The notes under the pieces: generated by a model | What the model saw: only the letters and a program-made list of their open reading frames with translations | Database searches by the model: none | Told to the model about the DNA's origin: nothing | IMG/VR virus record: IMGVR_UViG_3300045988_107637 | Location: 14,411-78,410 of that record | Direction: 5' to 3' (one strand) | Length of the DNA stretch: 64,000 nucleotides | Source of the DNA: a virus | Shown here: positions 13,551-59,154 of the stretch, piece by piece | How positions within the stretch are numbered: the first letter of the stretch is position 1 | Layout: the number at the start of each line of letters is the position of its first letter | Position numbers and translations under genes: made by a program

Positions 13551-16346
13551 TTATATGCTGCTTAAAATTTTCAATATCTTATCTGAATTAGTAATCTTTC
13601 CTCTTTCCCTTGTTGGTTGTGCAGTACCATTTACTTGGTTCATTATATCTTCAAGAGATAATTTCCTTCTCAATTCTCCACCAGTAGCACCAGCCAATTC
13701 CCTATAACAGTCATAACACAATCCCCCACAAAGCATAATGATATTGTCTGTAAGGTCGGGAGAAAAGCCTTTTATCAGAGCATGTTGCTCCTTCTTTCCT
13801 TCAAACTGTATTCGTCCCGAAGGCAAACGTTTAAATTTGAATATTCTGCTCTCAAACTGCATTTGTTTTAAGACAGTAGTAGAACCTTCACGCTTTAGCT
13901 TCTGATGTGTATATCTCATTTTAGCAAGCTGTCTGTCATAGGTTATCAATCCAGCCTTTATCATTTGGGTAGCAAGGTGTGCAGCTTCATCCTTAAATCT
14001 TTCATACAACTTCTTTCCTTTAGCAGTTGCGGCAATCGCTCCGGAGAATGCGACACCTCCACCGTTTGCTGATACAAGATTGAAAATCTCTTTTAAGAAA
14101 CCGTTACCTTGCACATCAATGATTAGCTCTTTATCAGTCAATCCATGCTTAACCATAAACTGCTTAATCATCTTTACAGCTTCAAGATTAGAGTTTTTCA
14201 TGCAATATTGTATATCGTCACAATGGAAACCTACCCAATGCTTCATTACAAAGTTATCCTCCCCAGTAGTTGCCATATCCACGGTAATACGCTCCTTCTT
14301 GCATTTACATGGAGAAACATGAGTAAACATATTGAGAATATCATCCTCTGTCACTTCGGAAAGATTATCTTCTTCTTCTTCTTTTTCGTCTTGTATAGAG
14401 AAATTCCAATTAGGTTCATACATTGAATCTGCAAGCACAGATGTTGCAGCCATAGCGCGATAACCTTTGTTTGCTTTAAGCATAGCTTGGTTATCCCTCA
14501 CATCAAAAGTAAAGAATACCATGCTCATAATAAAGTCCTCATAAGACATATCCGGGTCAATCTGCAAAAGGTTATCTATAATGTCTTTGCATTTAGAATA
14601 AACCTCTTCCTTAGTATTTCCCCAATAGACTTCATCCAAGTTACCCTTTACAATGTGGAAGAACCGAACAACTCCATTCATTTCTTTAATGGGTTTTCCA
14701 TCATCTCCAATCCAGCCCCCACCATTCTTGCCACAACCGCATAGCTTACGTATGAAGCATTCACGTTCCGGATTTTGGGCAAGATATATTTGGGCTTTAC
14801 CCTTAGTGTTCGCACGCAGACGGGTTTGACAAGAAGAAATAGTCCTCCATTCAAATTTATTGCATTCCTCAAATATGGCTTTCTTGAACTGCAATCCTTT
14901 GAATATCTTATCTATTACGGTAGGACTTTCATTATTCAATTGTTGGAATTTAATTTCTGAACCATTGAAAAACTTAATACCCATATCATCTTGAACCTTA
15001 ATGACTTCTCCAATAGGTTCTCTTGGCTGTATTCTGAAACGTCTGTCAATAAGCGGATATATTTCCTTAAGACCGTCTACCACCTTGCCAGCATCAAAAA
15101 AGTCGCCAACATTACGCATGAACCATACAGATTTTGCTCCTTGGTTATCATATAGATATGAAATTGGAGCATAGCCTAATGTAAATGTATTATGTGTAAC
15201 GATATAGTCTGATGTAATATACAACTTATCTTTATCGCTAACTGATATACATGCACATTCCATATCACCCACATATTCAATTGACGTTATTCGTATATGG
15301 TCTTTGTAATAGGAATAGGCATTGTTCTTTTGGTATTTTTCAATATTCTCATAATATCGGGACAGATGCTTCTTACTGCTGAAAATGATGTCATTTGTCT
15401 GTATCGAGATTTTATAGCATACACCAGATAAGTATTTAGTCCTCTTCTCCCTATTGGCTGACGCAACATATCCCAAGCTTCTGCATAACTCTAAAAAGTC
15501 ATCTTTCAGCTTTTCACTTGTCGTAGAGAAAGTAAATCTGTTCTTAGCTTCTACATTGCCATCAGAATCCATCAATCCCTTTAAAAGCTCTAATCTCTGC
15601 TCTTTGGATGAAGAAAGATATTCTTTAGGAATGTACCTGTTTCTTGAATAGTCCAACAAGCCGACACTACGTAGGTATTCGACCGCTTTTGAAGTACTCT
15701 CATTGAGATATATCCTATTCGTATAATTGTACGAAGCATGAACTTTGTAGTCAGATTTCAAGAGACCTGCGCATTTTTCAATTATGTCTTCTTCGTCATT
15801 GCATATCAGAAGGCTGTTTTTAGCTTTCGCTCCATCTCCAATATAAATTCCGAGGACATAAGGAGGTACGTCAAACTCTTTTTCTACTCCTTTGAAAGAC
15901 TTCGGAATAGGCAGATAAATATCCTTTCCCAAAGACAGATATTCGTCAATTAACTGTTTGGTAGTCTTTATATAATGAGTTTCCTTACCTTTTCTTGTGT
16001 TGATTATCATTTTTTTAGTACGTACATACCACAAATGTTCTAACCCACACAAGACACTTCTTCCATCAGAAGTCTTTAGACGATATGTAGGATTAATCCC
16101 TTGTGGGAAATATCCCGTCACATAGGATGTTTCATTATGGAAAGGGGACACAAGTTTATCACCAACTTTAATATCTTTCAGTTTCTTCCATCCATTTGGA
16201 GTTAAGATTGGCTCATCCACAGACAGTTGCTTGCCACCACCACCACTACCAGTAAGCACAACATAGTCAGCATTGCTTCGGATAGCTTCATATTGGCAAC
16301 CCGGCAATGGACTAACAATTTTGTCTTTCTGTATTTTCTCGCTCAT
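13551..16346 (-). CDS. terL: terminase large subunit, interrupted by an intein
   Basis: The Walker A is split: ...VVLTGSGGGGK | 347-aa insert | TFTLGYAP... which becomes GSGGGGKT after excision. The extein is 584 aa. Adjacent to the portal gene. Confidence 0.8.
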   Translation of the reverse strand: MSEKIQKDKIVSPLPGCQYEAIRSNADYVVLTGSGGGGKQLSVDEPILTPNGWKKLKDIKVGDKLVSPFHNETSYVTGYFPQGINPTYRLKTSDGRSVLCGLEHLWYVRTKKMIINTRKGKETHYIKTTKQLIDEYLSLGKDIYLPIPKSFKGVEKEFDVPPYVLGIYIGDGAKAKNSLLICNDEEDIIEKCAGLLKSDYKVHASYNYTNRIYLNESTSKAVEYLRSVGLLDYSRNRYIPKEYLSSSKEQRLELLKGLMDSDGNVEAKNRFTFSTTSEKLKDDFLELCRSLGYVASANREKRTKYLSGVCYKISIQTNDIIFSSKKHLSRYYENIEKYQKNNAYSYYKDHIRITSIEYVGDMECACISVSDKDKLYITSDYIVTHNTFTLGYAPISYLYDNQGAKSVWFMRNVGDFFDAGKVVDGLKEIYPLIDRRFRIQPREPIGEVIKVQDDMGIKFFNGSEIKFQQLNNESPTVIDKIFKGLQFKKAIFEECNKFEWRTISSCQTRLRANTKGKAQIYLAQNPERECFIRKLCGCGKNGGGWIGDDGKPIKEMNGVVRFFHIVKGNLDEVYWGNTKEEVYSKCKDIIDNLLQIDPDMSYEDFIMSMVFFTFDVRDNQAMLKANKGYRAMAATSVLADSMYEPNWNFSIQDEKEEEEDNLSEVTEDDILNMFTHVSPCKCKKERITVDMATTGEDNFVMKHWVGFHCDDIQYCMKNSNLEAVKMIKQFMVKHGLTDKELIIDVQGNGFLKEIFNLVSANGGGVAFSGAIAATAKGKKLYERFKDEAAHLATQMIKAGLITYDRQLAKMRYTHQKLKREGSTTVLKQMQFESRIFKFKRLPSGRIQFEGKKEQHALIKGFSPDLTDNIIMLCGGLCYDCYRELAGATGGELRRKLSLEDIMNQVNGTAQPTRERGKITNSDKILKILSSI
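15189..16229 (-). mobile_element. intein (347 aa) with embedded LAGLIDADG homing endonuclease, class-3-like
   Basis: Ends ...YIVTHN followed by a +1 Thr. Starts with Gln rather than Cys/Ser. Trp in block B (GLEHLW), Cys in block F (ECACISV) and Thr before HN match the WCT pattern. LAGLIDADG motifs are LGIYIGDGA and LKGLMDSDGN. Confidence 0.75.
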
Positions 16347-16358
16347 AATGGTTCTTTA

Positions 16359-16492
16359 GGCGCTTATATCCAAGTTTACACTTGAATAACTTGACGTTTC
16401 ATCGGACCACTACTTCTTAGGGAGCTTGTGCTCCGTTCGTCCATAGTTGGATTCTCACCGTCCAATCCCCGATGCGCCATCGGTTGGGTTAA
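16359..16492 (-). ncRNA. structured leader RNA, copy 1 (upstream of terL)
   Basis: Homologous to the copies at 17378, 20751, 21322 and 37165. Ends 12 nt before the terL ATG. Terminal hairpin UUCAAG-UGUAAA-CUUGGA. Confidence 0.75.
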
Positions 16493-16506
16493 TACTATTT
16501 TTTAGG

Positions 16507-16553
16507 TGTAGCTTGGTTATCGCTACATTGGCATTTGTTTATAAAAAGCTAAG
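16507..16553 (-). promoter_or_regulatory. conserved box TTAGCTTTTTATAAA-N-GCCAATGTAGCGA(A/T)AACCAAGCTAC (candidate phage late promoter plus hairpin)
   Basis: Near-identical boxes at 20693-20736 (+) and 37319-37363 (-), each 14-22 nt upstream of a leader copy. Hairpin GTAGC-N9-GCTAC. Confidence 0.45.
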
Positions 16554-16624
16554 TGATACTTTGTAGATAAATACCGTTCTCTTTTTTTCTACAAATATAC
16601 GCATTCTATGCTTCACTATGTACC

Positions 16625-16681
16625 ACTTACATTAAATTGAGCCTATGGACGCTAAATAAAAATGCTACTTTTAATGTAAGT
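16625..16681. repeat. 12-bp inverted repeat (ACTTACATTAAA / TTTAATGTAAGT) with 33-nt spacer in the divergent terL/scaffold control region
   Basis: Read directly. Ends about 27 nt upstream of the TATTTTTG -7 box. Confidence 0.6.
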
Positions 16682-16707
16682 ATGGTATGAGTAATGAAAA
16701 AGCTATT

Positions 16708-16715
16708 TATTTTTG
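16708..16715 (+). promoter_or_regulatory. Bacteroides-type -7 box (TATTTTTG)
   Basis: Matches TAnnTTTG, 29 nt upstream of the ATG at 16744. No clear -33 TTTG. Confidence 0.4.
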
Positions 16716-16743
16716 TTCAAAATAATAAAATCATTGACGAACA

Positions 16744-17370
16744 ATGGCACAAAAAGAAGAAGTTTTATCTAAAGTTAATCAGATTTGCGAAGAACGTAAT
16801 TTTGATTTGAGTGAAACATTCAGAGATAAGTTCTCTGAGAAATTTGCAGAAGCTTACAAGGATGCTCCGATTGAAGATGCTGGCTTAGTAGCCGCATTGA
16901 ATATTTCAGTTGAAAGTAGCGGACATGCAAGAAAGAACGCATTCTCAGAAGCGACTAAGGGATTTGAAGCTAAGGAAGCTGAATATAAATCTCAGATTGA
17001 AGAATGGAAGAAAAAGGCTGAAAAAGGTAATCAAGAGCCTCCGAAATTTGAGTTGCCTGCCGAGTACAAAGAGAAACTTGATAGGCTGGAAAAATTTGAA
17101 TTGCAAGAGAAAACGAAGTCTGTTCGCAATCAGATATACGACACAGCCAAGTCTAAGGTGAGGGAAGATTTACATGAATCTTTTCGTAACTATCTTGGTA
17201 AGCAGAATATCGCAATTGATGCTGATATTAATGCCGAGGCAGAAAGACTGCTGAAAGATTATCAAGATATATTCAGAAGCTCTATTGGTGATATTACACC
17301 ATTATCTCCGGACGGAAAGAAAACAACAATGGAAGACTACCTTGCTGCCATAAAACCCGTCAAACTTTAA
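16744..17370 (+). CDS. scaffolding protein candidate
   Basis: 208 aa, highly charged and helical (KAEKGNQEPPKFELPAEYKEKLDRLEKFELQEK). First gene of the capsid arm. Confidence 0.45.
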   Translation: MAQKEEVLSKVNQICEERNFDLSETFRDKFSEKFAEAYKDAPIEDAGLVAALNISVESSGHARKNAFSEATKGFEAKEAEYKSQIEEWKKKAEKGNQEPPKFELPAEYKEKLDRLEKFELQEKTKSVRNQIYDTAKSKVREDLHESFRNYLGKQNIAIDADINAEAERLLKDYQDIFRSSIGDITPLSPDGKKTTMEDYLAAIKPVKL

Positions 17371-17377
17371 GATAGTA

Positions 17378-17503
17378 TTAACCCAACCGATGGCGTATCG
17401 GGGATTGGACGGTGAGAACCCAACTATGGATGACCGGGGCGCAAGCTCCCTAAGAAGTAGTGGTCCGATGAAACGTCAAATGTCCTACAAGGACATGAAC
17501 GCT
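17378..17503 (+). ncRNA. structured leader RNA, copy 2
   Basis: Starts 8 nt after the scaffold stop and ends 12 nt before the ATG at 17516. No upstream box. Confidence 0.75.
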
Positions 17504-17515
17504 TAACAAAAGAAA

Positions 17516-18214
17516 ATGGCACAATTTAATTTAGAAACCTTCTTTGCTTCCGCTAAACAATTTAGAGGTGGCAAGTTCGTATGGTGGAAGGACGCCAATC
17601 ACGAGGAACGTTCCAATGTTCTCTATGGCTCTACCATTGCAAACCCTTATACGGGTTTTGGCTATGCTTTTGCGGCTGATTTGTACGAATACAGATTGTG
17701 GAAACCGGGTTTCCTTCTGAAAACGTTTAAGGTGGCAAAGGCTATTACTGCTGGCACAGACACTACTCTGTATGTAGATGGTTCTGGCTATTCTCACATT
17801 CCCGAAGTAGGCAATGTACTTATGAAAGCTCCCGATACAGTTGAAACTACGGGGCAGTCTGGTAAGGTTACATCTGTTGAGTTCGATGAAGAGAACAAGC
17901 AGTTTATTCTTACTGTTGACACTGCAATCGGTGCTCTGACTACTGATGATATTTTGGTTGAAGCTGCTGACAAAAAAGGTGATGTTGCAACTGCTGCTGC
18001 TACCGACGCTACTGTGTTGGTTAAAAACCCGAATACCTTCATCGAAGTAGATACACAGTTTGCTCCGACTGATGGTCGCTGGGGAGTTACTAATGTTCAG
18101 CACAACATCAACACTGTTTATGGAAAGCGTGCATTTGTTGACCGTATGCAACCGCTTCCGAAGTATGTATTGGCTAAGAACCGCAACTACATCGAAGGTG
18201 TATTTGAAATCTAA
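17516..18214 (+). CDS. capsid-associated protein (decoration or auxiliary head protein candidate)
   Basis: 232-aa ORF between the scaffold and the major capsid gene. Function is inferred from position only. Confidence 0.35.
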   Translation: MAQFNLETFFASAKQFRGGKFVWWKDANHEERSNVLYGSTIANPYTGFGYAFAADLYEYRLWKPGFLLKTFKVAKAITAGTDTTLYVDGSGYSHIPEVGNVLMKAPDTVETTGQSGKVTSVEFDEENKQFILTVDTAIGALTTDDILVEAADKKGDVATAAATDATVLVKNPNTFIEVDTQFAPTDGRWGVTNVQHNINTVYGKRAFVDRMQPLPKYVLAKNRNYIEGVFEI

Positions 18215-18231
18215 AGGAAAGGAGTAGAATT

Positions 18232-19479
18232 ATGGCAAACGCATATAAATATCAATTTAATCCCGACGAGTTAGTAAACCAACTCTATCAAAGAGGATTG
18301 GTAAACTCTGACGGTACGAGTGTATTTATTCAGACGCTCGTTGACGAGAAAATCGTCATGGATGCAAACCAGTTCTTTTGGCAGGAACACTTCACTGTTG
18401 ATGGTGGTAAGTACCCTATTGACATGAGCCGCCCGAAGCTTGACCCTGCTTATACTATCTATAATGTTACTCGCCGCCCCGTTCCGATGGCTGATGCAAT
18501 GACACCGTTGAGTGAAGTTGCTCAGATGGATAACGAAGGCTGGGAACAGAGAACTGGTACTATCCCTCAGTTCGGTAAAGGTTTGTTTGAAACTTCTCTT
18601 TCAAAAGAGGAATTGAAAGCACGCTTGAATGAACTTGGTGAAGCTAATGCTACTTTGTTGGAAGGTTATGTACGTGGTGTTGCTGACTTGATTAAGACAC
18701 ACAACTACCGTCTTTCTAACATTGCCGCACAAGCCTTGTCTAAGGGAGGTCAGTACAGCAATGCTGATTCTCGTGGTATGTCCGGTGTCGTACATGAGTT
18801 CCCGAAGTATGTACCTGCTGAAAACTTTGTTAAGGCTGGCAAGGAAGTATGGACGAACGCAGAAGCCAACATTCCGGAACAAATGGCAAAGATTGAGAAA
18901 GATTTCCGTGACCGTACTGGATTTACTGGTACAATGGAATGGGATTTGCCGTATGACATGGTTATCACTCACTTGCTGAACAACAAATACTTCAAGGAAG
19001 AAGTTAACCGTTGGATTCGCTTGTATGCGCCCGATAAGGTTATTGTTGTTACTAATGGTGCTTCCGGCATTGATACTAACATCATTTCTTGGGAGCAGCT
19101 TATTCAGTATTCTCGTTCTTCTGTATCTAAGATTTCTCCTATCCGCATTGTGAAAGAGGAACAAGTGGTACAAGACATCAAAACGATTAAGACTGTACAA
19201 GGCTGGAAGTCGGGTGTAGCAGTTCTGCGTCCTATTGGCTTTGCTGGTAAGGTTGTTCATTCTGATGTTGCCGATGTTATCTTGTTGCAGCGTGAAGCAA
19301 ACAAGACGATTGACTATTCAATCGCTTCTGCACAGAATGACTTGATTTATATTATCAATAAGGTAGTTCCTAACGGTATCTACAAGGCATATCATACTGA
19401 TGCTATCGGTCGTTATATGCCAGTGCTGACCGAGTTTATGGAACACATTGTTGTTGATACTTTGACTGCTGATTCTTAA
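18232..19479 (+). CDS. major capsid protein
   Basis: 415 aa with a GGAAAGGAG RBS-like element. Called from its position after the scaffold/decoration genes and before the connector genes. Confidence 0.6.
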   Translation: MANAYKYQFNPDELVNQLYQRGLVNSDGTSVFIQTLVDEKIVMDANQFFWQEHFTVDGGKYPIDMSRPKLDPAYTIYNVTRRPVPMADAMTPLSEVAQMDNEGWEQRTGTIPQFGKGLFETSLSKEELKARLNELGEANATLLEGYVRGVADLIKTHNYRLSNIAAQALSKGGQYSNADSRGMSGVVHEFPKYVPAENFVKAGKEVWTNAEANIPEQMAKIEKDFRDRTGFTGTMEWDLPYDMVITHLLNNKYFKEEVNRWIRLYAPDKVIVVTNGASGIDTNIISWEQLIQYSRSSVSKISPIRIVKEEQVVQDIKTIKTVQGWKSGVAVLRPIGFAGKVVHSDVADVILLQREANKTIDYSIASAQNDLIYIINKVVPNGIYKAYHTDAIGRYMPVLTEFMEHIVVDTLTADS

Positions 19480-19495
19480 ACTTGGAGGGTTATAT

Positions 19496-19867
19496 ATGAC
19501 TATACTTGAATGGCTTTCTTCATCTTGTCGGTATTCGTTTGAGGAGAATACATTTATGAGAATTGCTCTTGACCGCGGCATCACAGATGTAAACGAGGAT
19601 GCTATGACGTTGACCCAAGAGCAAAAGGATTTAATGACTGCCGATATAATATTTACCGCAGTGTTGTTAAGCCCTTCAAGTACAGCATCTCAATCTGCCT
19701 CTCATAATAACTTCCAGCGTACAGTTGGGTCAGAGACGGACATCTATCAGAGTAATAAAATAAGTTATGCTTTGGGCATATATAAGAGATACAATGACCC
19801 TAATTACGAGGTTCTTATCTCTGCTCGTCCAAAGATTAAACTCTTGAAAATTATAGATGTGATATGA
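19496..19867 (+). CDS. head-tail connector / hypothetical structural protein
   Basis: 123 aa with GGAGGG upstream. Overlaps the next ORF by 4 nt. Confidence 0.45.
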   Translation: MTILEWLSSSCRYSFEENTFMRIALDRGITDVNEDAMTLTQEQKDLMTADIIFTAVLLSPSSTASQSASHNNFQRTVGSETDIYQSNKISYALGIYKRYNDPNYEVLISARPKIKLLKIIDVI

Positions 19868-20208
19868 TTTCATTCAGTGACATAGAAGAATTTCCTTTTT
19901 CGGGACGTATATACAGAATCATCGAAAGTTCTATGGGCGACGATGAAGAAGATACCGTCTACGAAGGAGTAATGGACGTGAATCTTTCTGTTGCTGAATC
20001 CGGTTCGACCGCTCAAACAAGCGACTACGTTGTTTCTATTCCTTTGATAAAAGGAGAGGACGGGAAGTATATTAATCCAGTACGTAATGAAGACTGGATA
20101 GAATGTGATGTTATGGGAGAGCAAATTAAGATGCAAGTTGATAACAGCATACCTTCGATGTTAGGTGCTATAACTATATATGCAAATAGAAAAGGTGGAT
20201 GGCGATAA
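19864..20208 (+). CDS. head-tail adaptor candidate
   Basis: 114 aa, translationally coupled on both sides. Confidence 0.45.
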   Translation: MISFSDIEEFPFSGRIYRIIESSMGDDEEDTVYEGVMDVNLSVAESGSTAQTSDYVVSIPLIKGEDGKYINPVRNEDWIECDVMGEQIKMQVDNSIPSMLGAITIYANRKGGWR

Positions 20209-20696
20209 AAGTAAAAGTTGATTTGAGTGGTTTGAAAAGGGTTCGGCAAGAACTGTTTGACAGACTTGCTGGCGAGCAAACCCAGCGACTAATAGCCTAT
20301 GCACCCGAATTGTTGAAGAAAGCATATTCTGAAAGCGGATTTACCGACCAGACTTACAACTTGGCTGATAGTTATATTTGGGCTGTGTTCTATCAAGGCA
20401 ATTTGAAGGGGAGCGGCTACTTGTATCCGTATCAGATGGCAACTAAAAACTCAAAGTATCATGGCAAGCTGATAGATGGAAGAAAGCTTGCTGACGAGTT
20501 CTTGGCAAACTATACTCCTGCCACTTATATAGGATGGGATTTGGTGCTGGCAGCAACAGTGCCTTATGCTCCTATATTGGAAGGAGGAAATACTGGAAAT
20601 CCAAGACGAAGATTTGAGGTGTTATCAACCATATATGACGATATTAAGGAAGATTTTGCAGGGAAGGCAACTGTTAAAACAATAGGAGGCATTTAG
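20199..20696 (+). CDS. HK97 gp10-like head-tail joining protein candidate
   Basis: 165 aa. The N-terminus MAIKVKVDLSGLKRVRQELFDRLAGE is reminiscent of the gp10 family. Position also fits. Confidence 0.4.
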   Translation: MAIKVKVDLSGLKRVRQELFDRLAGEQTQRLIAYAPELLKKAYSESGFTDQTYNLADSYIWAVFYQGNLKGSGYLYPYQMATKNSKYHGKLIDGRKLADEFLANYTPATYIGWDLVLAATVPYAPILEGGNTGNPRRRFEVLSTIYDDIKEDFAGKATVKTIGGI

Positions 20697-20736
20697 CTTT
20701 TTATAAATAATGCCAATGTAGCGAAAACCAAGCTAC
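20693..20736 (+). promoter_or_regulatory. conserved late box (copy upstream of leader 3)
   Basis: TTAGCTTTTTATAAATAATGCCAATGTAGCGAAAACCAAGCTAC. Its TAG is the stop codon of the upstream gene. Confidence 0.45.
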
Positions 20737-20750
20737 ACCTAAAAATAATA

Positions 20751-20876
20751 TTAACCCAACCGCTGGCGCAGCGGGGATTGGACGGTGAGAACCCAACTAT
20801 GGACGACCGGGGCGCAAGCTCTCTAAGAAGTAGTGGCTCGATGAAACGTCAAGTGTCCCACAAGGACATGAACGCC
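20751..20876 (+). ncRNA. structured leader RNA, copy 3
   Basis: Carries the double compensatory change CCGCUG...CAGCGG in the first hairpin. Ends 10 nt before the ATG at 20887. Confidence 0.8.
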
Positions 20877-20886
20877 CAATAGGGAT

Positions 20887-21318
20887 ATGAGTGTAATTGA
20901 TGCAAGGCGAATGCCGATATACCAATATGTTTATTCTCTCTTCATAGATAAGGTTACAAAGTACATCTATCCGATGGAAATGCCTACCAAGTTGGAGGAG
21001 GAGATAAATGCTGGCGGTTTCATGGTTATCCGTCTGGGAGAAATTAAGGATAAGAGCCAGTTCAACTTGAATGCTCTTGCGAGCGTTCGCGTGACAGTTG
21101 AGATGTATATTCCTCCCAAGACAAGAGGTCGGCTTGATACCACTTTGCTGGAAAAGTATGAAACAAGCATATCCGATATTGTGAATGCAGAAGTTGAGAA
21201 AGCCGGAGAAAAATACGACATATCAACTGATGGTATATTGTCAACTGATGATATATATAATGAGAGCGACAATCTGTTCTTCATGTATATTAAATCATTT
21301 ATGGTACTAATAAAGTAA
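20887..21318 (+). CDS. tail terminator / tail completion candidate
   Basis: 143-aa ORF between the connector genes and the major tail gene. Confidence 0.4.
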   Translation: MSVIDARRMPIYQYVYSLFIDKVTKYIYPMEMPTKLEEEINAGGFMVIRLGEIKDKSQFNLNALASVRVTVEMYIPPKTRGRLDTTLLEKYETSISDIVNAEVEKAGEKYDISTDGILSTDDIYNESDNLFFMYIKSFMVLIK

Positions 21319-21321
21319 AAA

Positions 21322-21447
21322 TTAACCCAACCGATGGCGCATCGGGGATTGGACGGTGAGAACCCAACTATGGACGACCGGAGCACAAGCTCCCTAAGAA
21401 GTAGCGGCTCGATGAAACGTCAAGTGTTCCATAAGGACATGAACGCC
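21322..21447 (+). ncRNA. structured leader RNA, copy 4
   Basis: Starts 4 nt after the stop at 21318. Lies 43 nt upstream of the ATG at 21491. No upstream box. Confidence 0.75.
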
Positions 21448-21490
21448 TCATTTATAATCAATATAAATAATAATTTAAAAATTAGACGAG

Positions 21491-22000
21491 ATGGCTACAC
21501 AAGATTTGTTGACTTACAAATGTAAGTCTTTAGGCTATGCGGAAGTCGGGGCTGGTGCAGAAGCTTCTTATACTCCTCTTATGGGTGTGTTGGAAGGTTT
21601 GTCTATTAGTCAAGAAACCGCAAGTGAAAGTGCTATTAACGGTGAGTTCTATGATACTCCGCTTGATAGCGTGGGTACACTTGGTTCTTACAAGATTGAA
21701 TTTGACTTGGTTAAGTACAAACCGGAAGAGATTGCCGCTATGGAAGGCGGTAAGTTTACCGCTTCTACTGGCTTGTACACAATGCCTTTTTCATTCACCA
21801 ACGTTTACAAGAAGTTCAAGTTGGAGTTCTACAATGGTATTGACTACATTGTTATTTACAAAGGTAAGGTCGCTACCAATTGGGATGGTACTGATTTGAA
21901 GACTGCCCCGTTGAAATTGCACATTGTTATCACTGCTTTGGTTGACGATGATGGCAAGACAGTTGAGATGAAGATGGCTGAACCTTCTGCTGGAGGCTAA
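21491..22000 (+). CDS. major tail protein candidate
   Basis: 169 aa, immediately upstream of the chaperone pair and tape measure, and followed by a terminator-like hairpin. Confidence 0.5.
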   Translation: MATQDLLTYKCKSLGYAEVGAGAEASYTPLMGVLEGLSISQETASESAINGEFYDTPLDSVGTLGSYKIEFDLVKYKPEEIAAMEGGKFTASTGLYTMPFSFTNVYKKFKLEFYNGIDYIVIYKGKVATNWDGTDLKTAPLKLHIVITALVDDDGKTVEMKMAEPSAGG

Positions 22001-33601: not shown

Positions 33602-33707
33602 TGTAAAAGTTTAATCTACAACGCATTATATAGAATGATATGAAAAAGGATGTGAGAGTTGTTAACGGCTTCAATGCTGCCACGGGTAGCTCAAAGCCAT
33701 GTTTCTT

Positions 33708-33731
33708 ACCAAGTTCTCTTAGAACTAAATA
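33708..33731. repeat. right inverted repeat of the putative invertible promoter
   Basis: ACCAAGTTCTCTTAGAACTAAATA. Lies 8 nt from the paralog-3 start codon. Confidence 0.85.
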
Positions 33732-33739
33732 GTTTATTT

Positions 33740-35348: not shown

Positions 35349-35481
35349 TATTATGTTGTTTTAAAATGTTTCTACTAAAAAGCATCTATCTTCACAGACC
35401 GATGCCGTCTACTAACACTATCAAATATGAGATTAAACAAATCAATGGCAATTATATACATCACTTTGTATATGAGTGTCA

Positions 35482-37153: not shown

Positions 37154-37164
37154 TCTTCATTTCG

Positions 37165-37297
37165 GGCGTTTATATCCAAGCTTACACTTGGACAACTTGA
37201 CGTTTCATCGAGCCGCTACTTCTTAGGGAGCTTGTGCTCCGGTCGTCCATATTGGGTTCTCACCGTCCAATCCACGATACGCCATCGGTTGGGTTAA
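37165..37297 (-). ncRNA. structured leader RNA, copy 5
   Basis: Same family. A 1-nt deletion (AACCCAAUAUGG) breaks the pseudo-ORF seen in other copies while the helices are retained. Terminal hairpin UCCAAG-UGUAA-GCUUGGA. Confidence 0.75.
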
Positions 37298-37318
37298 TAC
37301 TATTTTAAATCACTCTGC

Positions 37319-37363
37319 GTAGCTTGGTTTTCGCTACATTGGCTTTTTTTATAAAAAGCTAAG
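37319..37363 (-). promoter_or_regulatory. conserved late box (copy upstream of leader 5)
   Basis: Minus strand reads CTTAGCTTTTTATAAAAAAAGCCAATGTAGCGAAAACCAAGCTAC. Its TAG is the stop codon of the upstream gene. Confidence 0.45.
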
Positions 37364-38108
37364 TGTCACTCCTCATTTCGTTTAAGGCTTCTCCTTCATC
37401 AACCTCTCTTTTAGGAATGGCAATGGATTGTTTGAACTCGCCACCGTTATCCTTAATCAGAATCTCAATCTTGTTCATTGCCTCACGTTCGATGTTGTAG
37501 ATTTGTTCCTTCAAATCTTTTACCTTTTCTTCATCAAGCGTTGTTTCAAGAGAAAGATAGCGGATAGTTTCGATATACTTCTGATAAAATTCGTTGCGAG
37601 AAATATCGGAAGGTGCTGGCATGAGCATGGTATTACTTTTTGCCAAGTATGAGAAGTACATACACATTACATTGGTGACTTGCAATGTATCTCCTCCAAC
37701 GGCAAAGGCTGGCTCGGAAAGCGTATAAATCCATCGCTCTGTATGCTGCAATACCTTAACAATCTCTTCCGGCATTTCGTCAGCATGTTCCATCAGTTGA
37801 GAGAAGCTGAAACCTTGTACATTCCCATTCTTGTCCTTAACTTCTCCAAATTCTTTGTTTGCTTCGATGCACTCACAGAATGTTCTAAGCCACAGATAAG
37901 GATTAGAATAACCGCCACTTACTACATTGGTAAATACGTTTCTATGGAAGTTGGTAGACACAACTGAGTAATCGTCGGTAACTGCAATAGAAATTCCTCT
38001 ATCGTCCAGTCTGCAATACATGTGTCCTTTGGTCTTTGGCACGAATACATAGGAAGTACCTATGAGTTTTACAAGCTGTGCCTTGCTCATTTTACTAATA
38101 TCCATCAT
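37359..38108 (-). CDS. hypothetical protein (249 aa)
   Basis: ORF track with an ATG start. Confidence 0.6.
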   Translation of the reverse strand: MMDISKMSKAQLVKLIGTSYVFVPKTKGHMYCRLDDRGISIAVTDDYSVVSTNFHRNVFTNVVSGGYSNPYLWLRTFCECIEANKEFGEVKDKNGNVQGFSFSQLMEHADEMPEEIVKVLQHTERWIYTLSEPAFAVGGDTLQVTNVMCMYFSYLAKSNTMLMPAPSDISRNEFYQKYIETIRYLSLETTLDEEKVKDLKEQIYNIEREAMNKIEILIKDNGGEFKQSIAIPKREVDEGEALNEMRSDT

Positions 38109-38696: not shown

Positions 38697-38724
38697 AAAT
38701 AAGGGAGAGAAATTAATCCCTCCC
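38694..38724 (-). terminator. intrinsic terminator abutting the promoter
   Basis: GGGAGGGA-TTAATT-TCTCTCCC followed by a T-rich run on the minus strand. Confidence 0.55.
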
Positions 38725-38823: not shown

Positions 38824-40029
38824 CTACCCACGAACTAAAGATTCGTGGGCTTCCGACTTCACAGAGGAATGCCCTTTCAAAAGATTAGGTCTTCTATCCT
38901 CTCCATCGGTGTAATCGACAGTCCCTGCCGATATATTATTTAATCCTAATTTTAGGATATTGATAGCAGCATTTACATCTCTATTATGATGTGTACCGCA
39001 AGATGGGCAACCCCATTCTCTTACTTTCAAGTCTTTTATTTCGCTATTACGATAGCCACAAACATTACAAAGCTGAGAGGATGGAAAAAACCTATCAATC
39101 TTAACTACATTTCTACCATTCCAATTAGCCTTATATGTTAGCATAGTGACGAATGTCCCCCAACTTGCATCAGTAATTGATTTAGCAAGTTTATGGTTTC
39201 GTACCATACCTTTCACATTAAGGTCTTCAATACAAATGGTGTCGTAGTTAGAGATTAGAGAGTGAGAACACTTATGCAAGTAGTCCATACGGCAATTAGA
39301 AATCTTCTCATAGAGTTTAGCAGCTTTGAGCCTTTGGTTTTCGTACTCATTACTACCTTTCTTTTTTCTTGAGAGGTGTCTCTGTGCTACTGCAAGTTTC
39401 TTCTCATATCTCTTTGTGTATCTATTATTCTTGAATACTTCACCATCAGATGTTATCAGTAGGTCTTTCAAACCTAAATCTACACCAACTGCTTTATTAG
39501 CAGGTGCAAGTTCTTGATAATCCTCTATTGTGAATACTGATACAAAATACTTTCCTGTTGGAGTTTTAGTTAGACTAACTTTGCCCATCTTACCTTTGAT
39601 TTCTCTATGCAGACGGATAGTTATACCACTCTTGAATTTAGGTAGCCACAATTTACTATTTTCAATAGTTGCAAATTGGGGTACGGTAAATGTATTCTTA
39701 CCTTTCTTTGAGTGATAGTTAGGGAACTTCGCTCTCTTTTGGAAGAAATTAGTGTATGCAGTTTCAAGATTACGCAAAGCAAATTGAAGTGTTTGAGAGT
39801 TTACTTCTTTAAGCCAAGCGGTTTCTTCTTTTTTCTTTAATTCAGTTAAAGCCTTTGCCTGAGCATAGTAGTTATCACTCTCTCCTTCCTCTTTATATTG
39901 CTCTTGCCTTTGATTAAGGAAATAGTTATAGACAAAGCGAGTACAGCCGAAGTGCTTCGCCAACAATTCCATTTGGGAAGCATTTGGATATATCCTAAAT
40001 CTGTATGTTCTATTTATCGTCTTAATCAT
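38824..40029 (-). CDS. tnpB: TnpB RNA-guided nuclease (IS605 OrfB family)
   Basis: The ATG at 40029 gives [16 protein letters not shown]. RuvC motifs [20 protein letters not shown] and RDVNAAINI are present. Zinc finger CNVCG...CPSCG. The track start at 40161 overlaps tnpA and is probably too long. Confidence 0.85.
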
Positions 40030-40107
40030 AGTGCAAATATACATATAAGTATTTACAAAAACAAGAAATGTTTTGTAAAAGTGAAATATTTTCGTTAATT
40101 TTGTAGT

Positions 40108-40512
40108 ATGAGGAGTGATTATGAGCATAGTAACCGACACAAATATTACTTGAAGTGTCATTTGATATTCTGCATTAAGTACAGAAAGAAGTTGCTCGTA
40201 GGCAAATTCAATGATACTATCAAATGTATTTTAAAGGGTATCGCAGAAAAGTCTGATTTTGATATTGAAATAATGGAGTCAGACAAAGACCACATCCATT
40301 TTCTCATCAACTATCCACAGAACATATCAGTAACATCTATTGTTAGAAAACTCAAGCAAGAGAGTACGATATTCGCTTGGAAACTCTTTGAGAGTAAGTT
40401 GAGAAAAGAGTTTTGGGTTGAACGCACATTATGGAGTGATGGATATTTCTGTTGCTCAATAGGAGAAGCAAGTCCAGAAACAATTAGGAAATATATTGAA
40501 CAACAAGGTTAG
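40108..40512 (+). CDS. tnpA: IS200/IS605 Y1 (HUH) transposase
   Basis: 134 aa with the HUH motif HIHFL, KYRKKLL, and a C-terminal Tyr in RKYIEQQG. Confidence 0.85.
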
Positions 40513-57641: not shown

Positions 57642-57862
57642 TGTCTTATCATTTTTTCGATTATTGTTCTCAGTTCCTTTTCCCAATCCTTGTTCCCGTG
57701 CATAGGATAACTTAGCTGATGCCAACTGTGGTAGTCAAATAGCTTCATCCGGCACGGGTAGTAATCAAACAGTTTCTTCTCATTGTGGAATACTCTGATG
57801 TGCTTTCCCTCATACTCTCCGATATTACTCGATGGTAATTATATACATGTTTACACTTGTAT

Positions 57863-59077
57863 CTATTTGTTAATAAATTTCTTAACTGGGTTATACCCAA
57901 ACCCTCTATAGGGTGGCATTGCTGCATCCCCTTTTACTTTTCTCATGATGTTGTAGGCTCCGTTTATATCTGCATTGAGTAAAATCCCGTTCTTTGTTCT
58001 GAAAAGACCTCTTTTTACTCTCTTTCCAACATAACTATCATGATGTTTTATCTCCTCTAAATCTAAAGAACTGCATTTCGACGTGTGAGATTCGTTTATT
58101 TCAACAAATCTTAGTCCTTGTCTTTCAGATTTATACCTTAACATTGATATGAACGTCTCAAACGGAATTGAAACAAAATTCTGATTGTTTCTTTTACTCA
58201 TATTCACTTCCTGTTTCCATCCGTCATTATGTCCCACTATCAATGTCGTTATGTTGTCTTCCAGGCACATGCCTACAATTTCCTTGCTTGCCTTATGCAA
58301 ATAATCCTTGACCTTATTGTTTCTCTTTCTTGTAAGGTTCATTAACCGTCTCGAATTTTCCTTTCCATTTGTTTTCTTTAATTGTGATTGAACTTTAGCT
58401 TTTTTCTTGTTATAATACTGATTGACAGACTTTAATTTCTTTCCATCTATCAAAACAGCCTTATTGCTCGTATTCGTTACAATAGAAGCAAAGTTGTTAA
58501 CCCCCAAATCAATAGACATATATCTATTGTTATCTGGTAACTGTTCCTTTACCTCCGATTCATACACCAATTCTATTACATAACAGTCTGCTTTCGGAAC
58601 AAATCTGACTTGCTTAACCGTTCCTTCCTTACATCTGGTTTTCAATGGTTGCAAACCTTCTTTCTTTGGAAAGTAAATATATTCTCCTCTATGCTTAAAT
58701 TGTGCATAAGAATAAGAAAATATATTTCTTCCTTTTGTTTTATGCTTGTATTTCGGGAATTTAGGACATCCAGTAAATTTCTTGTTATCCCTTTTCCATG
58801 CTTTAATGGCTGAAAAATAAGATTTCAGATTTCTATCCAAAGCCATAAGTATTTGCTGGGAAGAAGAACCGCTCATAGCCCTAAAATCAACATTGTTTTC
58901 TGCAACCATCTTTTTGTTAAGCTCCACAGACCTTATCCATTTCCCGGAAACAAGAAATTCTTGCTTTATGATATACAAAGCCGCGTTATACAAGTTCTTA
59001 GATAAGAAACAAATCCGGTCTAAATCCTTGTACCTCTTGTCATTGACTGTTATTATATGTTGCTCCGTTAAATACAT
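57863..59077 (-). CDS. tnpB: divergent solo TnpB-like protein (IS605 OrfB / IS1341-like)
   Basis: 404 aa. RuvC-I SIDLGVNN and RuvC-III NADINGAYNI are present. The usual RuvC-II E position reads LIVGHNDGWKQE, with a Glu in EINESHTSKC. The CxxC zinc finger is replaced by C...HH. No tnpA is adjacent. Confidence 0.7.
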   Translation of the reverse strand: MYLTEQHIITVNDKRYKDLDRICFLSKNLYNAALYIIKQEFLVSGKWIRSVELNKKMVAENNVDFRAMSGSSSQQILMALDRNLKSYFSAIKAWKRDNKKFTGCPKFPKYKHKTKGRNIFSYSYAQFKHRGEYIYFPKKEGLQPLKTRCKEGTVKQVRFVPKADCYVIELVYESEVKEQLPDNNRYMSIDLGVNNFASIVTNTSNKAVLIDGKKLKSVNQYYNKKKAKVQSQLKKTNGKENSRRLMNLTRKRNNKVKDYLHKASKEIVGMCLEDNITTLIVGHNDGWKQEVNMSKRNNQNFVSIPFETFISMLRYKSERQGLRFVEINESHTSKCSSLDLEEIKHHDSYVGKRVKRGLFRTKNGILLNADINGAYNIMRKVKGDAAMPPYRGFGYNPVKKFINK

Positions 59078-59154
59078 ATCGCAAATATAAATAGAATATT
59101 TTAAATTTCCTATTTATTTATATAATTTTTAGTGCAAAGTTCTATATAGTTACC

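What the first reader, a model, noticed from the sequence alone, without database searches (positions are those of the whole stretch)
20693..21447. Five-copy structured RNA placed in sense orientation just 5' of late-gene start codons, with compensatory base changes
The same ~126-134 nt element occurs at 16359-16492 (-), 17378-17503 (+), 20751-20876 (+), 21322-21447 (+) and 37165-37297 (-).

Placement: all five copies are co-oriented with the downstream gene. The gap to the ATG is 10-12 nt in four copies and 43 nt in one. The downstream genes are terL, the 232-aa capsid protein, the 143-aa tail protein, the major tail protein and a small membrane-protein operon.

Support for RNA helices:
- Hairpin CCGAUG-GCG-CAUCGG in four copies becomes CCGCUG-GCG-CAGCGG in copy 3. 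This is a two-position compensatory change, and it also removes the ATG of the apparent mini-ORF.
- GGAGC-ACAA-GCUCC alternates with GGGGC-GCAA-GCUCC (A-U versus G.U, GNRA-like loop).
- The 3' hairpin AUGUCC-N5-GGACAU in copies 2-4, whose variants are G.U pairs only in the sense strand, is replaced by an unrelated stem UCCAAG-UGUAA-GCUUGGA in copies 1 and 5.
- A possible long-range GACG/CGUC pairing, plus duplicated AACCCAAC-NN-AUGG and UGGACG blocks, allow alternative pairings.

I do not recognise it as any riboswitch, ribozyme or leader family I know. The fixed spacing to start codons suggests a translation-initiation or standby element, an mRNA processing site or a regulator-binding leader. 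This is attractive in a host group that largely lacks Shine-Dalgarno use.
Basis: partly seen in the sequence, partly recalled or inferred. Interest (0 to 1): 0.85.

Follow-up and report, generated by a model that had tools for sequence, protein, structure and literature searches.

The report
Guide-RNA ends of a phage transposon
The five repeats are real and do fold as RNA, but they are not a new translation leader. They are stranded copies of the guide-RNA (omega RNA) end of a TnpB-carrying transposon that has scattered miniature copies in front of late genes of gut Bacteroides phages.

Summary
Five 125-133 nt copies lie at the stated coordinates, each co-oriented with the next gene and 10-12 nt (once 43 nt) from its ATG, and their helices work only on the sense strand.

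The interpretation changes. In 23 related gut-phage contigs the same 133 nt is the 3' end of a 406-aa TnpB gene (ISDra2-like, RuvC motifs present). The ORF runs 113 nt into the element, so this is the omega-RNA scaffold and right end of a TnpB transposon.

The carrier is not IS605-like. It has about 25-nt terminal inverted repeats and 8-bp target-site duplications, and it shares its left end with IS1595-family DDE transposons found in the same phage population.

The window copies are one intact 217-nt MITE (c1) and four damaged derivatives. The window has no cognate TnpB and no IS1595 transposase.

The 'fixed spacing' is the 8-bp duplication plus 2-4 nt of native spacer. Related phages have empty sites, so the element is dispensable.

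AAA precedes the duplication in 12 of 13 insertions but in 1 of 10 transposase-bearing copies, which suggests a TnpB target-adjacent motif (TAM) and RNA-guided homing. That part is inferred.

Verdict: a new variant of a known kind (standalone omega RNAs).

The parts
16359..16575 (-). Copy c1: an intact 217-nt MITE. It has the left inverted repeat GGTATTTATCTACAAAGTATCACTTAG, an ~84-nt left arm and the 133-nt omega-RNA scaffold (16359-16491), which ends in the right inverted repeat ..CTTGGATATAAGCGCC.
16576..16583 (-). c1 5' target-site duplication AAGAGAAC, preceded by AAA (16584-16586). The 3' copy TAAAGAAC is at 16351-16358. It matches 6/8 here and 8/8 in relative L019.
16592..16599 (-). TATATTTG, which matches the Bacteroides -7 promoter motif TAnnTTTG (motif from my own knowledge). 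It lies 8 nt upstream of the c1 5' duplication, so c1 would lie in the terL 5' leader. This is a sequence observation only.
17371..17503 (+). Copy c2: right end only. The scaffold is 17379-17503 with the short 3' hairpin, plus 8 nt of left-arm remnant GATAGTAT. No left inverted repeat.
20688..20876 (+). Copy c3: a cassette with a truncated left end (GGCATTTAGC.., one of two GGCACTTA repeat units lost) and the scaffold 20752-20876 (short 3' hairpin). Duplications are CAATAGGA at 20680-20687 and CAATAGGG at 20877-20884, preceded by AAAA.
21303..21447 (+). Copy c4: a left-end remnant GGTACTAATAAAGTAAAAAT, which supplies the last 5 codons and the stop of the upstream 143-aa gene, plus the scaffold 21323-21447. 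Duplications TCATTTAT are at 21295-21302 and 21448-21455, preceded by AAA (21292-21294).
37165..37372 (-). Copy c5: a cassette with an internally deleted left end (GGAGTGACACTTAGC..) and the scaffold 37165-37296. The scaffold carries two private lesions, G-to-T in the first hairpin and a 1-nt deletion. Duplications CGAAATGA are at 37373-37380 and 37157-37164, preceded by AAA (37381-37383).
21448..21467 (+). Candidate guide of c4 (TCATTTATAATCAATATAAA). It is identical over 20/20 nt to the AAA-preceded empty allele in the 10 of 13 related empty-site contigs that carry ..TCAATATAAA; three have a C at guide position 15 (19/20) and L157 is unrelated at this site. Equivalent candidate guides: c1 16339-16358(-), c2 17504-17523(+), c3 20877-20896(+), c5 37145-37164(-). 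Each covers the spacer and start codon of the next gene.
   Evidence: for the sequence; guide function is inferred
57834..59147 (-). A separate TnpB element: a 404-aa gene at 57863-59077, 25% identical to the cognate TnpB. Its 3' end weakly matches the model (16 bits). It is framed by IS1595-like inverted repeats GGTAACTATATAG.. and ..ATGTATATAATTACC. It is not the partner of the five copies.
38824..40161 (-). Another TnpB gene, 445-aa ORF, 39% identical to the cognate TnpB. It has an unrelated IS605-like 3' end (..GTGGGTAGTTCAC). It is not the partner of the five copies.

Best explanation
What it is. The repeated 133-nt unit is the omega-RNA (reRNA) scaffold of a phage-borne, ISDra2-like TnpB RNA-guided nuclease. 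Its last ~25 nt double as the right terminal inverted repeat of an IS1595-type (DDE) transposon. I put this identity at about 0.95.

Forms in the phage population.
- A ~1.33-kb unit: left repeat, tnpB, omega-RNA scaffold and right repeat.
- ~220-nt MITEs: left repeat, an ~85-nt arm and the scaffold.
- Decayed copies that have lost the left end.

The five window copies are one intact MITE (c1) and four damaged ones. The window and its complete close relative C3_41T2LP have neither the cognate TnpB nor the IS1595 transposase.

How the copies got there (shown). Each was inserted with an 8-bp target-site duplication into the short A-rich stop-to-start spacer, or the last codons, ahead of a late gene. 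That leaves the right end 8 + 2-4 nt from the ATG.

How it most likely works (inferred).
1. The copies are transcribed as part of late mRNAs.
2. Where a cognate TnpB is present (one copy in about half of the related contigs, or a co-infecting relative), the scaffold plus the next ~16-20 nt acts as a trans guide RNA.
3. That complex cuts 'empty' alleles (5'-AAA + the same sequence) in rival genomes.
4. Repair from the occupied allele copies the MITE across. This is RNA-guided homing, or marker exclusion.
5. An occupied site is itself immune to this cutting. That would explain why copies persist in TnpB-less genomes such as this one.
For: Identity.
- In 23 of 47 contigs the element is the 3' end of a 406-aa ORF that runs 113 nt into it. 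The stop is the TAA in the GUAA loop of the 3' hairpin.
- That ORF has OrfB_IS605, HTH_OrfB_IS605 and Cas12f1-like TNB domains. It matches ISDra2 TnpB structures 8EXA/8H1J at E=1.6e-82.
- By my reading of the sequence, the RuvC motifs GIDVG, IIEDL and NDRD are present.
- Conservation stops exactly at ..CGCC, and the flanks differ by site.
- The helices hold only on the sense strand, with compensatory changes in two hairpins.

Carrier.
- The left end GGCACTTATATACAAAGTGACACTTAG matches the reverse complement of the right end at 20/27 positions.
- 8-bp duplications are seen in 12 of 24 site entries, against 0.6% of mismatched controls, and at c1, c3, c4 and c5.
- The same 25-nt left end sits 170 nt upstream of a 306-aa DDE_Tnp_IS1595 transposase (5e-43) in contigs of the same phage group.
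- A complete 3139-bp copy has the duplication TTATTTAT.
- IS1595 elements in Sphingobacteriaceae genomes have the same 17-nt end and 8-bp duplications.

Function.
- AAA precedes the duplication in 12 of 13 omega-RNA-bearing insertions. The background AAA frequency is 0.078, giving P about 6e-13.
- AAA precedes only 1 of 10 transposase-bearing insertions (Fisher p=1e-4).
- The preference is one-sided, as expected for a TAM rather than a DDE target preference.
- The c4 site is occupied in 29 of 42 related phages and empty in 13, and the c4 guide matches the commonest empty allele 20/20.
- The scaffold is more constrained than the MITE left arm: 95.1% identity with no indels versus 88.5% with length 79-90 nt, n=44.
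- Immobilised copies replace the right repeat with a different hairpin rather than losing it.
- Published work reports that standalone omega RNAs act in trans with compatible effectors (PMC10691335, read).
Against: - There are no expression or biochemical data. Guide use, the TAM and homing are all inferred.
- This window and the complete genome of C3_41T2LP lack the cognate TnpB, with no hit above 60% identity in 50,697 phage records. The copies cannot act with a genome-encoded partner there.
- The omega-RNA core is absent from 185,579 bacterial species genomes, so no host-supplied partner was found.
- Some copies have guides that no longer match the empty allele next to AAA: the long-hairpin c4 variant and window c2.
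- Only 1 of 5 full tnpB units with a detectable left end shows an intact 8-bp duplication.
- The AAA contrast rests on 13 versus 10 sites.
- Copies are so similar (median 92%) that high conservation could partly reflect recent spread.
- An A-rich TAM would be unusual for ISDra2-like TnpBs, which use TTGAT (my own knowledge).
Confidence: 0.55

Rival explanations
1. Stranded selfish DNA. The copies are MITE relics of the TnpB/IS1595-type element with no present activity, either as guide RNA or as leader. They persist only because precise loss is rare and they are harmless where they sit. Their sequence and structure conservation reflects recent descent from tnpB-linked masters and constraint on the inverted repeat.
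For: - No cognate TnpB or IS1595 transposase is found in the window or in the complete relative C3_41T2LP.
- Four of the five window copies have damaged left ends.
- c5 and c2 carry private changes at otherwise invariant scaffold positions.
- Copies are very similar to one another, consistent with recent spread.
- Some guides no longer match empty alleles.
Against: - Scaffolds are all-or-none and free of indels, while the adjacent left arm decays.
- No truncated scaffold was found in 42 phages sampled independently of the element.
- Immobilised copies keep a substitute 3' hairpin.
- The AAA motif next to the duplication is not expected from transposase preference alone.
Confidence: 0.3
2. The structured RNA has been taken over as a 5' leader that promotes translation initiation, mRNA processing or stability of late genes in a host that lacks Shine-Dalgarno use.
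For: - The copies are always sense-oriented and within 2-21 nt of an ATG in most contexts.
- The structure is conserved on the sense strand.
- c1 lies downstream of a promoter-like TATATTTG and so would be part of the terL leader.
- Copies persist without TnpB.
Against: - The same genes in close relatives lack the element. The c4 site is empty in 13 of 42, the c2 site is empty in C3_41T2LP and the c3 site is replaced by a small ORF in 19 of 42.
- The spacing is fully accounted for by the 8-bp duplication plus the native spacer.
- The duplication preserves the native sequence upstream of the ATG, so no new signal is needed.
- The downstream genes are heterogeneous, at least 20 different ones, including another tnpB.
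Confidence: 0.07
3. A classic IS200/IS605-family miniature element (PATE) moved by a Y1 TnpA on single-stranded DNA. On this view the hairpins are DNA recognition structures rather than RNA helices.
For: - It is associated with TnpB.
- There are subterminal hairpins at both ends.
- Insertion is strand-specific.
Against: - Terminal inverted repeats and 8-bp target-site duplications are present. By my own knowledge of ISfinder descriptions, IS200/IS605 elements do not make these.
- The matching autonomous elements encode an IS1595 DDE transposase.
- Abundant G.U pairs would be G-T or C-A mismatches in DNA hairpins.
Confidence: 0.03
4. A regulatory use of the guide RNAs. TnpB or a nuclease-dead relative (TldR-like) uses the guides, which cover late-gene start regions, to repress transcription or translation of the phage's own late genes.
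For: - The guides would cover the spacer and start codon of late genes.
- Phage-encoded TldR regulators are known (PMC10705468, listed).
Against: - The cognate TnpB keeps its RuvC motifs by my reading of the sequence.
- In the occupied genome the guide's DNA match is preceded by ..CGCC, not by AAA, so self-binding is not expected.
- No cognate protein is encoded in this genome.
Confidence: 0.03

Closest known systems
Standalone omega RNAs of OMEGA systems (Altae-Tran et al. 2021, as summarised in PMC10691335)
   Same: They are mobilised copies of the effector-proximal guide-RNA scaffold that lack the effector and transposase. They are found in genomes that also hold effector loci, and are reported to work in trans. 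Here there are 2-6 solo copies beside one tnpB-linked copy in 23 contigs.
   Different: - Here they are packaged as inverted-repeat MITEs with 8-bp duplications.
- They sit in phage genomes immediately upstream of late-gene start codons.
- They also occur in genomes with no cognate effector at all.
ISDra2 TnpB and its omega RNA (PDB 8EXA, 8H1J)
   Same: - The protein is a clear homologue (E=1.6e-82, aligned over residues 3-377).
- The RNA scaffold overlaps the 3' end of tnpB and ends at the transposon's right end, with the flank as guide.
   Different: - The carrier is not IS200/IS605-like. It has IS1595-type inverted repeats and duplications.
- The scaffold's 3' hairpin lies inside the right inverted repeat.
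- The candidate TAM is AAA rather than TTGAT (the latter from my own knowledge).
- There is no sequence similarity to IS605-type RNA ends such as ..GTAGTTCAA.
IS1595-family insertion sequences and their MITEs
   Same: - About 25-nt inverted repeats beginning GGCACTTATATAC and 8-bp duplications.
- The left end is identical over 25 nt to transposase-bearing copies in the same phages.
- The non-autonomous copies are about 220 nt.
   Different: - The MITE's right half is a TnpB guide-RNA scaffold, and a 1.33-kb version carries tnpB as its only gene.
- Insertions show a one-sided AAA preference that the transposase-bearing copies lack.
DDE-transposase-associated TnpBs and eukaryotic Fanzors (PMC10691335, PMC10432273)
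   Same: TnpB-family nucleases sit inside transposons with symmetrical inverted-repeat ends, with the gene's 3' end close to a transposon end.
   Different: - The published bacterial example named in the text I read is IS630-linked. IS1595 is not mentioned in that paper's main text.
- I found no paper linking TnpB to IS1595 ends.
Free-standing homing endonucleases of T-even phages (marker exclusion; reviewed in PMC13565253)
   Same: The proposed outcome is the same. A nuclease from one phage cuts the allele of a co-infecting relative that lacks the insertion, and repair copies the element and flanking markers.
   Different: - Recognition here would be by guide RNA plus TAM.
- It would be spread over several loci by non-coding MITEs served by one nuclease gene.
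- It is untested.
Start-associated sequences (SAS/ESAS) of Cluster K mycobacteriophages; T7 RNase III sites (my own knowledge)
   Same: They are repeated, sense-oriented intergenic elements just upstream of phage gene starts.
   Different: - Those are short, fixed features of the genes.
- This element is 133-217 nt, shows insertion polymorphism, is flanked by duplications, and is derived from a tnpB 3' end.

Membership tests
TnpB omega RNA (OMEGA guide-RNA scaffold) | Lies at and overlaps the 3' end of a tnpB gene and extends to the transposon's right end. | tested here: met
   The tnpB ORF runs 113 nt into the element in 23 contigs. Pfam gives OrfB_IS605, HTH and TNB domains.
TnpB omega RNA (OMEGA guide-RNA scaffold) | Conserved secondary structure on the transcribed (sense) strand. 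| tested here: met
   97.6% of cells are paired and 4 pairs show double changes. G.U pairs are valid only on the sense strand. The long-range helices are invariant and so untested.
TnpB omega RNA (OMEGA guide-RNA scaffold) | A variable guide begins immediately after the conserved scaffold, at the transposon boundary. | tested here: met
   Conservation ends at ..CGCC in all copies. At least 25 different 3' flanks were seen.
TnpB omega RNA (OMEGA guide-RNA scaffold) | A target-adjacent motif (TAM) lies 5' of the guide-matching sequence in unoccupied targets. | tested here: inconclusive
   AAA occurs in 12 of 13 insertions versus 1 of 10 transposase-bearing copies. The empty c4 allele is AAA + a 20/20 guide match in its commonest form. 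This is indirect; there is no cleavage assay.
TnpB omega RNA (OMEGA guide-RNA scaffold) | The RNA is expressed, bound by TnpB, and directs DNA cleavage. | not testable with these tools
   Needs RNA-seq or RIP and interference assays.
IS200/IS605 family (including IS1341-type and PATEs) | No terminal inverted repeats and no target-site duplication; insertion 3' of a fixed tetra- or pentanucleotide by a Y1 or serine TnpA (my own knowledge of ISfinder descriptions). | tested here: not met
   There is a 20/27 inverted repeat and there are 8-bp duplications. No TnpA was seen. Not filed here.
IS1595-family transposon / MITE | Terminal inverted repeats shared with elements encoding a DDE_Tnp_IS1595 transposase. 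| tested here: met
   A 25-nt identical left end lies next to a 306-aa transposase (5e-43) in the same phage group. The same 17-mer lies next to IS1595 transposases in Bacteroidota genomes.
IS1595-family transposon / MITE | 8-bp target-site duplication. | tested here: met
   Seen in 12 of 24 site entries against 0.6% of controls. Window c1 matches 6/8 (8/8 in a relative), c3 7/8, c4 8/8 and c5 8/8. Autonomous copies have TTATTTAT, TTAATGAA and ATTATTTG.
IS1595-family transposon / MITE | Encodes its own transposase (autonomous IS). | tested here: not met
   Neither the tnpB unit nor the MITEs encode it, and there is none in the window. They are therefore non-autonomous members (MITE or mobile insertion cassette).
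Any Rfam family (riboswitch, ribozyme, leader) | A covariance-model match at or near the gathering score. | tested here: not met
   There were 0 hits at gathering thresholds on the whole window. There were only chance-level hits elsewhere at E<=10 on 16200-21700.
Obligate cis-acting late-gene leader | Consistently present upstream of the orthologous gene in related genomes. | tested here: not met
   Presence/absence polymorphism is seen at the c2, c3 and c4 sites.

The most novel reading that the evidence does not exclude
A natural, multi-locus RNA-guided gene drive among gut Bacteroides phages. One ISDra2-like TnpB gene per genome, riding in an IS1595-type transposon, is served by several dispersed MITE-borne omega RNAs. 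Their guides cover the spacer and start codon of essential late genes in rivals that lack the insertion (TAM 5'-AAA). Cutting those alleles during co-infection copies the MITE and flanking markers across or kills the rival, and occupied sites confer immunity. This would give standalone omega RNAs a biological role. It would also show a guide-RNA scaffold fused to a DDE transposon's inverted repeat, an intermediate between transposon-bound TnpB and multi-guide, CRISPR-like targeting.
Probability: 0.35. Interest if true: 0.85.

Novelty: new variant of a known kind. Interest (0 to 1): 0.6.

Why it matters
TnpB and its omega RNAs are the ancestors of Cas12. The role of standalone omega RNAs is stated to be unknown (PMC10691335).

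Four things stand out here.
- The guide-RNA scaffold is built into the inverted repeat of a cut-and-paste (IS1595-type) transposon rather than an IS605 end.
- It is propagated as ~220-nt MITEs.
- It is concentrated at late-gene starts of a phage group that has a cultured member, C3_41T2LP on Bacteroides uniformis.
- It carries a statistical footprint (AAA next to the duplication) of nuclease-dependent spread.

That makes the question 'what are standalone omega RNAs for?' testable in a tractable phage-host pair.

For annotation, these repeats should be labelled as mobile-element ends, not as late-gene regulatory leaders.

Tried and rejected
- Rfam. I searched at gathering thresholds on the whole window and at E<=10 on 16200-21700. 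Nothing relevant was found.
- tRNA or tmRNA. None.
- T4-like late promoter. I considered TATAAATAAT because it occurs near c3 and c4. It is not enriched (31 observed versus 22.9 expected).
- Coding mini-ORF. Rejected for the solo copies because the ATG is lost in many copies and c5 is frameshifted. It is explained instead as the relic of the TnpB C-terminal frame.
- Classic IS605/PATE classification. Rejected because of the inverted repeats and 8-bp duplications.
- Isolate-genome matches to the 17-mer. About 22 loci turned out to be an unrelated high-GC prophage gene.
- Second viral scan for variant first hairpins. It added nothing new.
- Bacterial genomes. A scan for the scaffold core gave 0 hits.
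- Divergent comparators. Prevotella Lak-phage TnpB was unusable because the ORF breaks under standard code. Clostridioides phage HGP05 has an unrelated IS605-type RNA end.
- Window's 445-aa TnpB as partner. Its 3' region does not align with the element.
- Thermodynamic stability as evidence of structure. The z-scores are weak.
- Right inverted repeat of the transposase-bearing copy in L086/L196. Only a 4-mismatch candidate was found, with no matching duplication, so I relied on L199, L185 and L188 for complete autonomous copies.
- Literature. I found no paper on phage C3_41T2LP and none linking TnpB with IS1595 ends.
Full report
1. THE OBSERVATION

The five copies are real. Repeat finding and alignment recover them at 16359-16491(-), 17379-17503(+), 20752-20876(+), 21323-21447(+) and 37165-37296(-), at 86-95% identity. 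A covariance model built later from 100 unique homologues finds exactly these five in the window at 131-167 bits.

Each copy is co-oriented with the next gene. The gaps to the ATG are 12, 12, 10, 43 and 11 nt.

- Across 100 unique copies, 97.6% of cells in six proposed helices form standard pairs.
- Four pairs show changes on both sides.
- Many pairs are G.U, which would be C-A on the antisense strand.

Two points are weaker. Folding energies are not exceptional (z from -2.1 to +0.15). The two long-range pairings never vary and so are untested. No Rfam family matches.

2. HOW WIDESPREAD IT IS

The closest cultured genome is Bacteroides phage C3_41T2LP, which infects B. uniformis. It is 97% identical over the structural module.

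A 17-mer from the core hit more than 90 loci from about 47 gut-virome contigs. These hold about 150 copies, of which about 100 are unique, with median pairwise identity 92%. About 22 further loci were chance matches in an unrelated prophage gene.

In most contexts the 3' end lies 2-21 nt from the ATG of a co-oriented ORF. At least 20 different genes lie downstream.

3. THE TURNING POINT

Sorting copies by their 5' flank showed a class whose upstream sequence reads ..CPKCGTTNDRDLLAARNI.., the hallmark C-terminus of TnpB.
- In 23 contigs the element is the 3' end of a ~406-aa ORF with OrfB_IS605, HTH_OrfB_IS605 and Cas12f1-like TNB domains.
- That ORF matches ISDra2 TnpB structures at E=1.6e-82. 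By my reading of the sequence, the RuvC motifs are present.
- The ORF runs 113 nt into the 133-nt unit. Its stop is the TAA in the GUAA loop of the 3' hairpin.
- Conservation ends exactly at ..CGCC, and the flanks differ from site to site.

This is the anatomy of a TnpB omega RNA (reRNA): a scaffold overlapping the gene's 3' end and ending at the transposon boundary, with the flank as guide.

Published work states that standalone omega RNAs lacking effector and transposase exist and work in trans, and that their role is unknown (PMC10691335).

4. THE CARRIER IS NOT IS605-LIKE

The DNA upstream of tnpB begins GGCACTTATATACAAAG.., and so does the long upstream block of most solo copies.
- This left end and the reverse complement of the right end (GGCGCTTATATCCAAGCTTACACTTGA) match at 20 of 27 positions.
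- The 8 nt before the left end and the 8 nt after the right end are identical or nearly so in 12 of 24 site entries, against 0.6% of mismatched controls. Examples are TAACCAAA, TAAAATCA, CTTTAAAT and TAAGTTTA.

Inverted repeats plus 8-bp duplications point to a DDE transposon, not to the IS200/IS605 family.

A genome-wide scan with the left-end 17-mer found it next to IS1595-family transposases in a Prevotella MAG and in Sphingobacteriaceae. Two of the three Sphingobacteriaceae elements have an inverted right end and 8-bp duplications.

Contigs of the same phage group encode a 306-aa DDE_Tnp_IS1595 transposase (5e-43). It lies about 170 nt, or in some contigs about 800 nt, downstream of a left end identical over 25 nt to the MITE's. 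One complete 3139-bp copy has the duplication TTATTTAT.

So the population holds three related forms:
- autonomous IS1595-type elements;
- a 1.33-kb non-autonomous unit whose only gene is tnpB;
- ~220-nt MITEs whose right half is the omega-RNA scaffold.

The scaffold's 3' hairpin and its last four paired bases lie inside the right inverted repeat.

5. THE FIVE WINDOW COPIES

| Copy | Coordinates | State | Duplication (5' / 3') |
|---|---|---|---|
| c1 | 16359-16575(-) | intact MITE | AAGAGAAC / TAAAGAAC (8/8 in a relative) |
| c2 | 17371-17503(+) | right end only | not resolved |
| c3 | 20688-20876(+) | lost one of two GGCACTTA repeat units of the left end | CAATAGGA / CAATAGGG |
| c4 | 21303-21447(+) | keeps only GGTACT.. 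of the left end | TCATTTAT / TCATTTAT |
| c5 | 37165-37372(-) | internally deleted left end | CGAAATGA / CGAAATGA |

- c1 lies just downstream of a TATATTTG box, so it probably sits in the terL leader.
- c4's left-end remnant now encodes the last five codons and stop of the upstream gene.
- The c2 type found in relatives (L026 class) is explained by deletion between two TTTAAA repeats in the MITE found at the same site in other phages. The window's own c2 has in addition a different 3' junction and the short 3' hairpin.

The 'fixed' 10-12 nt spacing is the 8-nt duplication plus 2-4 nt of the original spacer.

The window has no cognate tnpB. Its two other tnpB genes are 39% and 25% identical. 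It also has no IS1595 transposase. The complete genome of C3_41T2LP has neither.

6. DISPENSABILITY

I sampled 42 related contigs by the tail gene alone, so the sample is independent of the element.
- The c4 site is occupied in 29 and empty in 13.
- The c3 site holds a MITE in 12 and a 38-aa ORF in 19.
- The c2 site is empty in C3_41T2LP.

The downstream genes therefore do not need the element. This argues against an obligate leader.

7. IS THE RNA DOING ANYTHING?

Three observations suggest more than inert DNA.
- Among 44 unique intact MITEs, the scaffold is 95.1% identical with no indels. The adjacent left arm is 88.5% identical and ranges from 79 to 90 nt. No truncated scaffolds were seen in the element-independent sample.
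- Copies that have lost a usable right inverted repeat carry a different hairpin at the same place rather than none.
- The three bases before the duplication are AAA in 12 of 13 omega-RNA-bearing insertions. The background frequency is 0.078, giving P about 6e-13. For transposase-bearing copies the figure is 1 of 10 (Fisher p=1e-4). The preference is one-sided.

A DDE transposase would be expected to show a symmetric preference or none. A TnpB target-adjacent motif would sit exactly there, next to the sequence that the guide (duplication plus following bases) matches in an empty allele. The c4 guide matches the commonest empty allele 20/20 after AAA.

The simplest reading is that insertions which happened to land beside a TAM were amplified by TnpB-dependent homing, as shown experimentally for IS605-family TnpB. 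I know that work as Meers et al. 2023; it is described in the abstracts listed.

A-rich sense-strand spacers would then also explain why the copies are co-oriented with genes.

All of this is inference. There are no expression or cleavage data, the sites are few, and this genome lacks the nuclease.

8. A SECOND LINEAGE

The only other model hit in the window is weak, at 16 bits. It falls on the 3' end of the 404-aa TnpB gene at 57863-59077(-). That gene's end (..CAAGTGTAAACATGTATATAATTACC) and upstream flank (GGTAACTATATAG..) also look like IS1595-type inverted repeats. The TnpB-IS1595 pairing may therefore be recurrent in these phages.

9. COMPARISON AND VERDICT

The element works like, and is by anatomy, a TnpB omega-RNA scaffold. 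The solo copies are standalone omega RNAs in MITE form.

It is not a member of the IS200/IS605 family, because the tests for absence of inverted repeats and duplications failed. It is a non-autonomous member of the IS1595 family by its ends and duplications.

TnpBs inside DDE transposons are known but rare. The published bacterial case named in the text I read is IS630-linked. I found no report of IS1595 ends or of omega-RNA MITEs at phage late-gene starts.

I rate it a new variant of a known kind, with interest 0.6.

Noticed in passing
window 13551-16346 (-): The terminase large subunit ORF is 931 aa here but 585 aa in the 97%-identical phage C3_41T2LP. The extra part matches the homing-endonuclease domains Hom_end and LAGLIDADG_3, so it is probably an intein or an inserted homing endonuclease.
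   Followed up: partly
window 57834-59147 (-): A third TnpB gene (404 aa, 57863-59077) is also framed by IS1595-like inverted repeats. The 3' end is ..ATGTATATAATTACC and the upstream flank is GGTAACTATATAG... No matching 8-bp duplication was seen. This suggests a recurrent TnpB-IS1595 association.
   Followed up: partly
window 38824-40161 (-): A second TnpB gene (445-aa ORF; the real start is probably at the internal [11 protein letters not shown]). It has an IS605-type 3' end, ..GAAGCCCACGAATCTTTAGTTCGTGGGTAGTTCAC. It is unrelated to the five repeats.
   Followed up: partly
window 35447-35480: A 34-nt palindrome, GGCAATTATATACATCACTTTGTATATGAGTGTC, made of two IS1595-type inverted-repeat ends back to back. 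It could be a footprint or a minimal element.
   Followed up: no
window 38665-38714, 47373-47422, 57078-57127: Three copies of a ~50-nt motif containing the palindrome TTTTGGAAAGTTCCAAAA. All lie in intergenic positions on the minus-strand gene block. They could be terminators or operators.
   Followed up: no
window 3050-3349 and 3374-3673: A perfect 300-nt direct repeat, 324 nt apart, inside the 2757-aa ORF (2534-10807, -). Shorter related repeats lie nearby.
   Followed up: no
window 45383-45664: Fourteen overlapping copies of a 12/18-nt periodic repeat inside the ORF at 44974-45669 (-).
   Followed up: no
window 32369-33535 (-) and 33659-34840 (+): A divergently oriented pair of ~390-aa paralogues whose 5' ends form 132-nt arms with 71% complementarity. 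Neither has a Pfam match.
   Followed up: partly
L001:7116-7232 (C3_41T2LP), equivalent to the window c3 site at about 20680-20890: At the site where the window has MITE c3, 19 of 42 related phages carry a 38-aa ORF instead. The ORF is flanked by the short repeats GATATGAGCG and CCCATGAGCG. This junction is a hotspot for alternative cassettes.
   Followed up: partly
L041:3248-3380 (-) and its 3' flank: A divergent tnpB unit of this family is followed directly by the 3' part of a second-type tnpB gene (TTAGGATTAAATGATATATCGGCAGG..). The homologous site in the window's 445-aa gene is preceded by AAAA. One TnpB element appears to have landed in the guide-RNA region of another.
   Followed up: partly
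L025:1898 (-): At the site where other contigs carry the full tnpB unit, only a left-end scar remains: GGCACTTATATACAAAGTAATAATTAATA joined to CGTAAAATGGCG. This shows that whole-element deletion occurs.
   Followed up: no
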